DNA of 64,000 nt, taken from the NCBI GenBank assembly GCA_030141605.1, contig JAQGDQ010000032.1, positions 186,001-250,000 on the forward strand, in the 5' to 3' direction. Position 1 is the stretch's first letter, and the number at the start of each line of letters is the position of its first letter. Positions 20,188 through 54,295 of this stretch are shown here, piece after piece. The notes beneath the pieces are model-generated. The model ran no database searches. It worked only from the letters and a program-made list of their open reading frames with translations, and was not told where the DNA came from. This stretch comes from Tubiluchus corallicola (lineage: Eukaryota; Animalia; Priapulida). The translations under genes and the position numbers were made by a program.

Positions 20188-20275
20188 ATGTCAGGAACCA
20201 TGGTTCTTTATCATAGCTGTGTATTGTACGTTGCTGCTGCTCTAATATTAGCCTGTTTTGTAACATCGGTATCAG
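20188..20275 (+). CDS. CCHa: Neuropeptide gene exon 1 (signal peptide)
   Basis: aatATG; MSGTMVLYHSCVLYVAAALILACFVTSVS-G; strong donor TCAG|gtaaga, phase 1. Confidence 0.78.
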
Positions 20276-23200
20276 GTAAGATTTTTAGATATATCAAGTG
20301 GTCAAATCAACCGCTTTTATTTTGGCAATTAGCCATTGACGACTAACCTAAATGGCCGCTTCTGCTAATTTTTTTATACACGTGAACCAAAAACAGCCAG
20401 TCCGTGGTTATTTAGATCAGAAAGTCGGAAATATGAATACAAGTCCAGAAAAACAGATTTCTTGCAATTAATTTGCCAGTGAACGTACCCGTGCAGGTAC
20501 CTTATTAACGTGATTCTTAAAGTAAGGGGGTTGTTTTGAAATTAAAACAAGTTTCTGATGAATCTGTTAACTTTAAGAACCAAATTTAGTGTTTCTAGGA
20601 ACATCTTGCATTAATATAACTAATCTACCGATTAAACAAAATCAAAGCAATAAATTCCATGAGCTTGGGAATTGGAGGACTACTTCCAGGTTAAATAAGA
20701 CTCGTCCCGATTGACATATAATTTTGCAATGTATCAAGTGTTAAGATGTCCTATCCTGTGCGTTAGATCAGTGCCATCAGATCAGAGTGTTACGCTTTGT
20801 GACTAACTGATTTGTGTGTCAATCAACACGATTTTTGACAAACTCATTCTTTATCACATTTGATATTTAAACTATGTTGCGCTAAATTCCTTGACTAAAA
20901 TGGCGTGTTGATGCTTTTGAGCGTTCGCTCTGCTGTCATAGTGAGCGTAAATAGGTAATAAATATAATAAACAATTAGTATAAGTAGCAAAGTGTTACTT
21001 ACTAAGTAAACAGGAAATTAGTTTTTTTGGGAAATTTTGGACATATATGTACTTATATTTATATCAATTTTACATCACAAAATTGTATTGAGTAATTTAA
21101 AAAATTTTACGGCAACTTTGTGAAAGCTTATTCAAATGCCGAATCCTTGCTCAACTGCACAAACTTAACGGCTTCAACCTGGACTGTCAACACTGTCAGG
21201 ATGCGAACATACAAAACATTGCAGTAAATAACATTAATTAAAAACGTTTATAGGTTAAATTAGCCTCTCTTTCCCTCTCTGTTATACATGCACTCCATCA
21301 AAATGCATAATAAAGTTTTTTAATACAGTGAATTTTCAAAGCTTCAATGAGTATTATCTCGAAATTCAAAAGCAACAAGAAAAAACAAACGGACGCTTTG
21401 TGCCAAAATGAAAGCAATATACCCCCTCCCGCCAGAACAAACTAAATGCTAATTACCTAGTTTGATTGTCTTGATTTATGAGTGCAAATTGCCGCGAATG
21501 TTATGAAAATCGTTACAGCACTTTTACGATTTTTTGAAATTCGAACTCACATAATAACTAATGAGATTTTAAATTTGTCACAAAGCGCACGACACTTTTT
21601 AATTTGTCTGTTAATTGCAGTTGCGCCGTTTTCAAGCGAAGGTTTTAATGTGCCACTTTTATCGTCGTTTGAACGTTTTCCTTGGCTAACGGCGTCATCA
21701 TGACGTCATTACTACGATGTCGTATGAGATGATGTCATCATACTTGATTTTGTGGTACCGGAAACAAAACACTTTTCTACTCACTTCTTGTGACGTGATT
21801 GTTGTACGCCACGATGCGTCGTTGACACTCGTTGTGGTTTCTAATCCCAGGCTGACTTCCCAACATTGGCGTCGTGGTGCTAAATAAACACAGGCCGTTT
21901 GCTATCCAAGTAGCGTAATGAATCAGTCATCAGTTTATTTAACATATAAAAATGTATTTAGCAAATACGACAACGTGAATATTAAAATTACAATTCAAAA
22001 CAATAGACTATCAAACCAACCAATCAATAGAACATGTATACGTGATAGGCTAAACTGAAAGAACGAATACTAATAGTGAAAAAAGTAAAATAATAATAAT
22101 AAAAAGGTTCTTTTTTCTTAAAGTAATGGGTTCTTTGATACTCCGAGGGGAACCACAGATCAAAATTTGTAGCACATGGCGGTTTTGCGACAAATTTTCT
22201 TCATTTTTGCACCTTTTGTTTATTATAGATTACGAGACTTGATTTTGAACCTGTAATCTCCTAATTTTTGGCTGTAATCTACCAAAGTAAAAAACCCTTT
22301 GGACTTTTACTAAGTTTCTGATCATTCTTATCAGAATAGGAGAGCTCTGCCTTTCTCAAACGTAATTTATTAGTAATTAGTAATTTAGTAATAAAAACCA
22401 AAAAAATGAGGTAAACGCAGAAAAGTATTTTGCTACCCTAATAACGAAACAATGGGCGATGCAGGTGAAAGGTTATCAGGAACATTTTGAGGCTTTTTTC
22501 ATTAAGCAAAAGTAAATGCTCTAGGAAGAAGATGTGTACGGAAAACATGAAAACTGGAAAGGCTTCAGATATGAAGTTTTATAAACATTGCGACAAACTA
22601 AATGTGTATAATAATTATTTACCAACTTAAGACGATTTCATATGCGGCGATCTTTTGAAAGTTACGCTATATAAATACATGACTAGTGTTGGGAGCTAAT
22701 AGACTTTTATGGTGGGGGTGCAACTCTTTACCTCCCTACTCATCCACAAATCTGACTAACCTGTCGCGTCATCTTTTATTCACAATAAAAGGGTTGTGCA
22801 ACATTCGTGGGCGGTTGTTGTCCTACAGTTTTCCAGAGGGCAACAAGGTATATGAACCAGAAAATTCAACGACACAGGTGTAAATAATATGTCTTTAGAG
22901 AGGTTGCAATGTCGAAGGGCTTTTTACGGGGGTCTACTTAGGCATTATGGTTTTCCATGTTGAATATGACATACCATAGATTTCAAATATTCCAACAACA
23001 AAATCTCATATGAAATGGAGGAAAAGATTACGATTATTTGTACTATTTTTATTTACTTTTTAGTCCATTTAGATAAATCAGAACAGGTCATTATCACAAC
23101 TATCAGTAACAGTTTCGGGAAAAAACGGCAGTTAACAATAACAAAAATGACAAAGTAAACAGAAAACAAAATGTCTACTTATCAGTTAACCCTTCCCTTG

Positions 23201-53200: not shown

Positions 53201-54295
53201 TATTGTTCAGTAGACGAATGCACTGTCAATTTTGCCCACGCTCTAACGCATAAATGAACCGTGCGAGTAGAAGATTTCCAGGTGCAAGTAATCTACTTAA
53301 ATATACAAAACTTCTTACAGATTGGACTTTTACTTAATAAGCTTTGACTTCGGGCTAAATGACTGCTGCTGTTGTACAGCTTCAGATCAACAAGTTCGGT
53401 TCGAAGTATGGACACTTAACTTGTCCTTATTTTGTAGTATATTCAAGTTAAATTTTACCCAGCTGTTCAAGCAATTTCAGAGATTTTGAACCCACCCTGC
53501 ATATACCCATAAAGCCCTAATAATTGGCGAAGCACGAGTTCACAAGTAAATCAAGTGGCACACTGGTCCGTGTGTCAGCGATTTTACGCAAATTTTGGAT
53601 GAAACTAGACGGCGAGTGTTTTCTCTCCTTTTTGAGGAACTCCATGCCGACCCTTGCTTTAGGACATGCTTCTTGTTGTGTCTCATACCTGTTGTAGAAC
53701 TTAAGAACTAATCTCGTTTAGTAATAACATAATGTTACCTCTTATCAAAAATCCTAATTGAGCAACTTGTTTCGGGCAAAACGTAGTTATAAACTGATTA
53801 AAGTTATTTTATTATTTTGTGCGGTATATTATGGATGGCGACACTAATCATACTACTTTCCCTGTTTGTTTGCCGGAGCCGCTTGCGACACATGTGATGG
53901 TGTAATTTTATGATGACGAACTATCTGATATAATTTTAGATCAACAAATTCTTCTACCTTTTGATCAAGTTTCTGTACTCTACCCTGTAAACAGACGGAC
54001 TGGTTTTTGTAACTTACACGATTACCGCATTGTCCAAAGGCAATGGAACTATTTGTTAACCCCACCCACAAAAAACAATATAGCCATGTAGGCAAGCTTT
54101 TAAACGATAGCGCATTTCCATACTCCAAGTTGGTAGTGTTTCCCATTCAAATTCAAATGAATAGTTACGATACCGTACCAACGTGTATGTTATATTATTT
54201 TAAATGACGCCATTTTTCATTCTTGCTTGGACGATTTTTATTTTGTGCTTTTTCAGTTGTCGGATAGGTACGCCGCTAGGAGGAAAAGACGGTAA
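20188..54295 (+). CDS. CCHa: CCHamide-like neuropeptide precursor (4 coding exons, 136 aa)
   Basis: join(20188-20275,49551-49586,51825-52072,54257-54295) = 411 nt, GT-AG introns of phase 1,1,0. Protein: MSGTMVLYHSCVLYVAAALILACFVTSVSG-SCASFGQSCLGGF-GKR-AYDDVESLQPYTNDEDDEELSDYRRSLQQDRERQFNELLNRLYLQWKGRRQQEEDSELPSLESLQRRPIFMKNSKKSLLSDRYAARRKRR*. Confidence 0.8.
22687..23772 (-). mobile_element. Solo LTR, family A copy 1
   Basis: TGTTGGGAGC...AACCTTACA flanked by CTAG on both sides; colinear with 34415-35513; minus-strand AATAAA near the left end. Confidence 0.8.
24551..25199 (+). mobile_element. Possible solo LTR (no TSD found)
   Basis: TGTTG...CAACA ends, internal TATA-like gtatata, C-rich non-coding body. 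Confidence 0.3.
26278..26498. repeat. (CT)n microsatellite
   Basis: Directly visible; source of the SL/RE ORFs. Confidence 0.97.
26548..27575. mobile_element. Foldback-type element with modular inverted arms
   Basis: Left arm 26551-26723 is tandem GG(T/A)AAAAATGGCACA units; right arm 27443-27575 is the reverse-complement TGTGCCATTTTT(A/T)CC units. Confidence 0.65.
28081..28125 (-). mobile_element. 5S-rRNA-derived SINE fragment
   Basis: Minus strand ...ggacatGGATGGGTGACCGCagg resembles the 5S box C region; too short and degenerate to be a 5S gene. Confidence 0.4.
34415..35513 (-). mobile_element. Solo LTR, family A copy 2
   Basis: TGTTGGGAGC...AACCTTACA flanked by a perfect 5-bp TSD GCCAC (34410-14 and 35514-18). 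Confidence 0.85.
38870..39090 (-). repeat. Inverted diverged copy of 18867-19120
   Basis: e.g. tcatcgcgggagcttaaattttcaaattttatacagcgttgctgctaatac is the near reverse complement of gtattagctgcaacgttgtataaaatttgaaaatttaaactcccgtgatga. Confidence 0.75.
41617..41770. repeat. GC-rich ~25 bp tandem repeat (consensus AAGCTACTTCTGGGCCTACCGAGGC), about 6 units
   Basis: Directly visible diverged units. Confidence 0.8.
42320..42880 (-). mobile_element. Degenerate CR1/L2-type LINE 3' fragment
   Basis: Minus strand NWQLSTVAHKCSIIPIG...RNLGITLCCDLKFSKH and, further 3', NRIVRIWNLL; these resemble the end of the RT and the C-terminal region of CR1-group ORF2, with many stops. Confidence 0.7.
45456..45959 (+). 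mobile_element. Solo LTR, family B (504 bp)
   Basis: TGT...ACA termini, perfect 5-bp TSD CTTCC (45451-55 and 45960-64), internal CCAAT near 45594 and GTATATAAG near 45729. Confidence 0.8.
46317..46498. repeat. Tandem repeat of about 60 bp, 3 copies
   Basis: aaacaaagcagaataacttgatagaggtt occurs three times. Confidence 0.9.
47388..47595. repeat. (CTG)n-(CTA)n microsatellite
   Basis: Directly visible; source of the poly-Leu, poly-Tyr and poly-Ser ORFs. Confidence 0.97.
48453..48801. mobile_element. Possible palindromic MITE
   Basis: Internal inverted motifs gagttttctct near 48493 and agagaaaactc near 48756; repeated aactcg motifs; ends degenerate. Confidence 0.3.
49044..49220. repeat. Long (GT)n microsatellite
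   Basis: Directly visible; source of the CV/HT ORFs. Confidence 0.97.
49551..49586 (+). CDS. CCHa: Neuropeptide gene exon 2 (36 nt, core of the mature peptide SCASFGQSCLG-G)
   Basis: Acceptor ttttattttatttttcag|, donor GGAG|gtatgt, phase 1-1; C-x6-C spacing as in CCHamides. Confidence 0.88.
49975..50360. mobile_element. Small repeat element with GGAAAAAAGTCACA modules and an inverted copy at the far end
   Basis: ggaaaaaagtcacagg repeated on the left; cctgtgactttttt on the right; short ttagggttaggg tract inside. Confidence 0.45.
51825..52072 (+). CDS. CCHa: Neuropeptide gene exon 3 (F-GKR amidation/cleavage site and acidic propeptide)
   Basis: tttctcttctttgtag|GA TTC GGA AAA AGA...; open for 82 codons with dibasic sites; donor TTG|gtgagc. 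Confidence 0.88.
52172..52250 (+). mobile_element. Composite tRNA-head/5S-derived SINE fragment
   Basis: tggtatccgagtggtcaagg (tRNA A-box-like) followed by accaaagttaagcaacgtcggcc...tggatg, which resembles the 5S internal control region. Confidence 0.5.
54257..54295 (+). CDS. CCHa: Neuropeptide gene exon 4 (LSDRYAARRKRR-stop)
   Basis: ttttgtgctttttcag| phase 0. If the exon 3 donor is not used, the frame instead ends VSL* at 52084. Confidence 0.65.
   Translation: MSDRYAARRKRR

What the first reader, a model, noticed from the sequence alone, without database searches (positions are those of the whole stretch)
20188..54295. Hidden 34-kb neuropeptide gene encoding a His-less CCHamide variant (SCASFGQSCLGGF-amide)
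Seen: four small exons, none recovered in this frame by the ORF track, splice in frame to signal peptide + SCASFGQSCLGGF + GKR + acidic spacer with dibasic sites. Established: arthropod CCHamides are 13-residue, C-x6-C disulfide-bonded amidated peptides, e.g. Drosophila SCLEYGHSCWGAHa, which sits right after its signal peptide. They belong to the CCHamide/excitatory peptide/bombesin-endothelin receptor system. Here both family-typical His residues are replaced (GHSC to GQSC, terminal H to F). Inference: a divergent member, possibly with altered receptor pharmacology, and easily missed by annotation because the peptide is split over a 36-nt exon after a 29-kb intron. If the host is not an arthropod, so arthropod-like a peptide would matter for the evolution of the family.
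Basis: partly seen in the sequence, partly recalled or inferred. Interest (0 to 1): 0.88.

Follow-up and report, generated by a model that had tools for sequence, protein, structure and literature searches.

The report
Priapulid-type His-less CCHamide neuropeptide gene
This is a real, spliced four-exon gene, likely from a priapulid worm, whose product is predicted to be cut into a small ring-shaped signalling peptide of the known CCHamide family; its supposedly odd lack of histidines was already published for two priapulid species, so it is an ordinary new family member.

Summary
The gene is real. Four GT-AG exons splice to a 136-codon frame. One 726-nt contig in run X2 covers all four exons and all three joints, including the 29,275-bp intron. 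12 of the 16 listed coding differences are synonymous. The layout (hydrophobic leader, one C-x6-C peptide, GKR) fits CCHamide/excitatory peptide (EP) precursors. The novelty claim largely fails. Thiel et al. 2019 (PMC6617912) state that the terminal His is limited to arthropods and onychophorans. Their supplement lists Priapulus caudatus_02 and Halicryptus spinulosus_03 peptides with the same His-to-Gln and His-to-Phe changes, 11/13 and 10/13 identical to this one. A gene over 22 kb with an intron inside the peptide is also described in Ixodes. The exact 13-mer was not found in main-text searches, which miss supplements. The host is likely a priapulid; I could not test this with other genes. 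Processing, receptor and function are untested. One modest lead remains: the intron phases resemble those of bombesin-type genes. The scan earlier noted ordinary arthropod CCHamide genes in another genome (e1-7709016).

The parts
20158..20187 (+). 5' untranslated part of exon 1 (minimum extent); holds a 4-codon upstream ORF at 20163-20177, out of frame with the main ORF
   Evidence: X2 contig starts at 20158; uORF
20188..20275 (+). Coding exon 1: predicted signal peptide (residues 1-29 plus first base of Gly30)
   Evidence: Kyte-Doolittle 11-residue mean peaks at 3.0 at residues 15-25, and no later window after residue 46 is above 0
20276..49550 (+). Intron 1, 29,275 bp, phase 1, at the signal peptide/mature peptide boundary
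   Evidence: GT..AG; skipped by the X2 contig
49551..49586 (+). Exon 2, 36 nt: residues 31-41 of the precursor, both cysteines of the predicted mature peptide
   Evidence: the only CCHamide-like Cys motif found in six frames of the window
49587..51824 (+). Intron 2, 2,238 bp, phase 1, inside the codon of the penultimate Gly of the mature peptide
51825..52072 (+). Exon 3: terminal Phe (51827-51829), amidation/cleavage signal Gly-Lys-Arg (51830-51838), acidic spacer with four further dibasic sites
52073..54256 (+). Intron 3, 2,184 bp, phase 0, near the precursor C-terminus
54257..54562 (+). Exon 4: last 12 codons ending in a polybasic tail, stop at 54293-54295, then 3' UTR to at least 54562

Best explanation
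This spliced four-exon gene encodes a 136-residue precursor that is predicted to be secreted and cut into one disulfide-ringed, amidated 13-residue CCHamide/EP-family peptide, and it is likely the orthologue of the His-less paralogue already listed for two priapulid worms. Shown: exon structure, splicing in one run, purifying selection, precursor layout. Inferred from family knowledge: signal peptidase cuts after Gly30 (or Ser29), a prohormone convertase cuts at Lys45-Arg46, Gly44 donates the amide, and Cys32-Cys39 form the ring. The peptide would act on a CCHamide/EP-type GPCR of the bombesin/endothelin receptor group, most plausibly in gut-brain control of feeding or gut muscle. The host is inferred to be a priapulid. 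His at the two positions is an arthropod/onychophoran or majority state, not a family requirement.
For: Splicing of all three introns in one contig. 12 of 16 scored differences synonymous. Precursor meets the family features given by Thiel et al. 2019: two Cys, amide signal, single peptide right after the signal peptide, GG after the second Cys, aromatic residue between the Cys. By eye, the mature peptide is 11/13 identical to Priapulus_02 and 10/13 to Halicryptus_03, against 9/13 to the nematomorph and onychophoran peptides, 8/13 to Ixodes and 6/13 to Drosophila CCHa1. Both His replacements occur together in 2 of the 49 precursors in that file, both priapulid. The signal peptide ends in C-F-x4-S-G before the peptide in the window and in both priapulid precursors, and all three end in a polybasic tail. 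For Drosophila CCHamides, ring and amide are reported essential for receptor activation (passage).
Against: No mass spectrometry, receptor or SignalP result could be obtained. The spacer (exon 3) found no homologue in three searches, and by eye it resembles the priapulid spacers only weakly. Neighbouring genes did not identify the host. Orthology rests on by-eye comparison of short stretches, with no tree. The polybasic tail also ends Priapulus_01, so it is not paralogue-specific.
Confidence: 0.82

Rival explanations
1. It is a CCHamide/EP precursor, but the host is another non-arthropod ecdysozoan (kinorhynch, loriciferan, nematomorph), and the match to the priapulid paralogue is shared ancestry at a deeper level or convergence.
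For: Terminal Phe also occurs in the nematomorph Paragordius, and GQSC in the tardigrade Milnesium. No kinorhynch precursor is in that file. The host was not identified by my own searches.
Against: Only priapulid entries combine both changes, the Ser-Cys start and the C-F-x4-S-G signal end. Unchecked notes on other pieces of this genome also point to a priapulid (leads only).
Confidence: 0.11
2. The host is an arthropod that has replaced both family-typical His residues, giving a divergent CCHamide with changed pharmacology.
For: C-x6-C spacing and the peptide start directly after the signal peptide match Drosophila CCHa1.
Against: All 6 arthropod precursors keep the terminal His, and 5 of the 6 keep the inner His. 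The nearest peptides are priapulid. The C-x6-C spacing is shared by priapulid, loriciferan, nematomorph, rotifer and entoproct precursors.
Confidence: 0.04
3. The peptide is an unrelated cyclic amidated neuropeptide that resembles CCHamide by chance.
For: No database search tied the protein to the family. The receptor was not tested.
Against: 11 of 13 residues are identical to a published family member, and the precursor layout is the same. The searches used exon 3 or exon 1 alone, which lack the conserved peptide.
Confidence: 0.03

Closest known systems
Priapulus caudatus EP/CCHamide precursor 02 (Pcau.rna.tri.49310.1) and Halicryptus spinulosus precursor 03 (PMC6617912, Additional file 1, read in full)
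   Same: GQSC core, GGF-GKR end, Ser-Cys start, C-F-x4-S-G signal end, single peptide, polybasic precursor tail; 11/13 and 10/13 identical mature peptide (by eye)
   Different: Ser-Phe at peptide positions 4-5 instead of Ala-Tyr (and Ala for Glu at position 3 against Halicryptus); spacer not recognisably alike beyond short motifs; those entries come from transcriptomes, with no gene structure given
Ixodes scapularis CCHamide gene (bioRxiv 10.1101/2025.06.30.662206, section read)
   Same: Gene over 22 kb; intron inside the peptide-coding sequence; 13-mer with Cys2-Cys9; 8/13 identical
   Different: Keeps both His residues; has an alternatively spliced exon upstream of the peptide, for which no counterpart was seen here; its receptor is deorphanised (EC50 12 pM)
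Drosophila CCHamide-1 and -2 (precursors; passage)
   Same: 13 residues, C-x6-C, amide signal; CCHa1 follows the signal peptide directly
   Different: YGH motif and terminal His; CCHa1 is 6/13 identical
Lophotrochozoan excitatory peptides (Lineus EP, Aplysia apEP/CCHa)
   Same: Single cyclic amidated peptide after the signal peptide; terminal residue is not His; Lineus splice variants differ at the signal/peptide boundary, where intron 1 lies here
   Different: C-x8-C spacing and GGN-type ending
Bombesin/GRP/NMB precursor genes (PMC12002301, section 7 read)
   Same: [quoted passage not shown]
   Different: No disulfide in those peptides; no intron at the signal/peptide boundary is described; the exact interrupted codon is in a figure I could not see

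Membership tests
EP/CCHamide precursors (features from PMC6617912) | N-terminal signal peptide | tested here: met
   Hydropathy peak 3.0 at residues 15-25 and small residues at -3/-1 before Ser31; SignalP not available
EP/CCHamide precursors (features from PMC6617912) | Single peptide copy directly after the signal peptide | tested here: met
   only one such Cys motif in six frames of the window
EP/CCHamide precursors (features from PMC6617912) | Two Cys (C-x6-C in ecdysozoans) with an aromatic residue between them | tested here: met
   Cys32, Cys39, Phe35
EP/CCHamide precursors (features from PMC6617912) | GG or GA after the second Cys, then one residue and a Gly-Lys-Arg amidation/cleavage signal | tested here: met
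   Gly41-Gly42-Phe43-Gly44-Lys45-Arg46, across a confirmed splice joint
EP/CCHamide precursors (features from PMC6617912) | Mature peptide actually amidated and disulfide-bonded | not testable with these tools
   Needs mass spectrometry
EP/CCHamide precursors (features from PMC6617912) | Activates a CCHamide/EP-type (bombesin/endothelin-related) GPCR | not testable with these tools
   No genome held for a receptor search; needs a cell assay
Arthropod CCHamide in the strict sense | C-terminal His-amide | tested here: not met
   Phe43; His there is limited to arthropods and onychophorans
Arthropod CCHamide in the strict sense | GH motif between the cysteines | tested here: not met
   Gln37; Thiel et al. 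describe this His only as 'often' present
Priapulid GQSC/GGF paralogue (Priapulus_02, Halicryptus_03) | GQSC core plus GGF-GKR end plus C-F-x4-S-G signal end | tested here: met
   By-eye comparison
Priapulid GQSC/GGF paralogue (Priapulus_02, Halicryptus_03) | Groups with these precursors in a tree; host is a priapulid | tested here: inconclusive
   No tree built, as the published precursors were not available as stored proteins; neighbour-gene searches uninformative

The most novel reading that the evidence does not exclude
The gene keeps an ancestral bilaterian exon plan: a phase 1 intron inside the peptide near its amidated end and a phase 0 intron near the precursor's C-terminus, as described for chordate and echinoderm bombesin-type genes. 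If the positions are homologous across protostome CCHamide/EP genes, this would be ligand-side evidence that CCHamide/EP and bombesin/GRP precursors are orthologous, a link that Thiel et al. 2019 say rests on receptors alone. In addition, the GQSC/GGF paralogue would be an old, conserved priapulid branch that may have its own receptor.
Probability: 0.2. Interest if true: 0.45.

Novelty: new member of a known kind. Interest (0 to 1): 0.2.

Why it matters
Modestly. It adds a transcript-supported gene structure and a third sequence for a His-less CCHamide form that Thiel et al. 2019 list from two priapulid transcriptomes. It supports the view that the His residues that name the family are not required. 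It also shows how a 36-nt exon behind a 29-kb intron can hide a neuropeptide gene. It does not change the known distribution or chemistry of the family.

Tried and rejected
Homology searches with exon 3 alone found nothing (Pfam). The Atlas gave only hits under 0.9, including spexin and galanin precursor clusters, which is lead level at most. Exon 1 matched no Pfam family. The spliced precursor was not searched as a whole, so a database copy of it is not excluded. Host identification from neighbours failed: the 373-codon minus-strand frame had no hit, and the Kazal exon gave only generic Kazal hits. No whole genome is held, so no receptor or paralogue search was possible. No listed holder of the stretch is on record as RNA; X2 is RNA by guess. 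Main-text paper searches for pieces of the peptide found 0 papers. One search also missed PMC6617912, whose supplement holds a matching string, so these blanks say little. The Aplysia paper's readable supplements had no match. No structure-activity study of the His residues was evident (1 paper listed). No neuropeptide survey of other priapulid genera or kinorhynchs was evident from titles and abstract starts (25 of 28 listed). The codon interrupted by the bombesin-gene intron could not be read. Structure and complex prediction were not run: a 13-mer with no receptor sequence gives nothing to test. A processed retrocopy as source of the X2 contig is not formally excluded, but it would still show the same splice pattern.
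Full report
Observation. The introns are 29,275, 2,238 and 2,184 bp, in phases 1, 1 and 0. The product has a hydrophobic leader (11-residue Kyte-Doolittle mean up to 3.0, nothing hydrophobic after residue 46), then a 13-residue C-x6-C peptide, Gly-Lys-Arg at 44-46, an acidic spacer with four more dibasic sites, and a polybasic tail.

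Splicing. Two runs were listed. X1 behaves like DNA, with an unspliced contig over 51020-52730. X2 (RNA by guess, same species label) has one 726-nt contig that covers 20158-20276, 49547-49584, 51824-52071 and 54256-54562 in unbroken order. Its loose end upstream of exon 2 matches the end of exon 1, and its loose end downstream of exon 1 matches exon 2. All three joints are thus supported, including the 29-kb one. The contig differs from the window by about 5%. Of the 16 coding differences listed individually (about 21 exist in exons 1-3 by the piece tables; the rest were not shown), 12 are synonymous against 5.4 expected (simulated P = 0.0008). Three of the four replacements are in the signal peptide, one is in the spacer, none is in the mature peptide. 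This is one run, contigs only, so it shows neither tissue nor level. A filter set with hindsight found no other phase-compatible micro-exon in intron 1.

Family. Thiel et al. [quoted passage not shown] All sequence features are met except His. The same paper says the terminal His is present only in arthropods and onychophorans, with Met, Phe or Leu in priapulids, nematomorphs and loriciferans. In its precursor file (49 entries by my count, 12 from non-arthropod ecdysozoans), the GQSC core occurs in 5 of the 12, terminal Phe before GKR in 5 of the 12, and both together in 2: Priapulus caudatus_02 and Halicryptus spinulosus_03. By eye their mature peptides are 11/13 and 10/13 identical to the window's. 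They also share the C-F-x4-S-G signal end and a polybasic tail. My searches for it cover main texts only and missed even this supplement. Priapulus CCHamide also appears in the NP-HMMer preprint's figure legend (10.1101/2024.07.20.604414, passages). Its figures and supplements, and the fasta files of PMC6617912, could not be seen and may hold closer sequences.

Gene architecture. A long gene with a split peptide is not unusual: the Ixodes CCHamide gene spans over 22 kb and has an intron inside the peptide (10.1101/2025.06.30.662206, passages and section 15). Ixodes and Lineus both have splice variants just upstream of the peptide, which fits an old intron at the signal/peptide boundary (my inference). 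Huang et al. 2025 (PMC12002301; passages, section 7, supplement part 5) describe a phase 1 intron inside the peptide and a phase 0 intron near the C-terminus in bombesin-type genes. Introns 2 and 3 here have those phases and rough places. The search for CCHamide, phase 1 intron and bombesin returned only that paper, and the passages I read compare only echinoderm and chordate genes. Against the lead: I could not see which codon is split there; phase 1 introns in Gly codons are common (own knowledge); and this gene has an extra intron.

Host. Not shown. The peptide points to a priapulid other than the two in the file, or to a further paralogue. Neighbouring genes were uninformative, and no genome is held. 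Unchecked notes on other pieces of this genome also suggest a priapulid. I had reached that reading before opening them, and I treat them as leads only.

Mechanism. Shown: transcription and splicing in one run, selection, layout. Inferred from the family: signal cleavage after Gly30 or Ser29, convertase cleavage at Lys-Arg, amidation of Phe43, a Cys32-Cys39 ring, and action on a CCHamide/EP-type GPCR. Ring and amide are reported essential in Drosophila (10.1101/2024.01.27.577569, passages). Family members act mostly on feeding and gut (PMC12969411, passages and section 14). Spiralian EPs end in Asn or Asn-Gly, and the Lineus peptides still activate an orthologous receptor, so loss of His need not mean a new receptor type. 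Whether priapulid paralogues differ in receptor choice is open. PMC6585902 and PMC8557429 were read as passages and gave no usable intron positions.

Verdict. Real gene, correct family, but the His-less form is already in print for priapulids. New member of a known kind; interest 0.2.

Noticed in passing
window 7208-12966 (+): At least four Kazal-like exons (near 7283, 8985, 10580, 12862) suggest a multi-Kazal protease-inhibitor gene upstream of the neuropeptide gene; one was confirmed by Pfam Kazal_1 (E 1.4e-13)..
   Followed up: partly
window 58925-60043 (-): A 373-codon open frame, probably one large exon of a convergent neighbouring gene; no Pfam, homologue or Atlas hit.
   Followed up: partly
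window 20163-20177 (+): A 4-codon upstream ORF 25 nt before the start codon, inside the transcribed 5' end; a second in-frame Met (codon 5) lies in a stronger Kozak-like context.
   Followed up: no
run X2 versus window, exons 1-4: The run with the same species label differs by about 5% in coding exons and more in the 3' UTR, suggesting high polymorphism or a cryptic sister species.
   Followed up: no
window 11250-11800, 17480-17760, 26170-26520, 47300-47710, 48950-49260: Long simple-repeat tracts give spurious long ORFs; dispersed high-copy repeats lie near 18900-19270, 22700-23800 and 50000-50340 (X1 depth).
   Followed up: no
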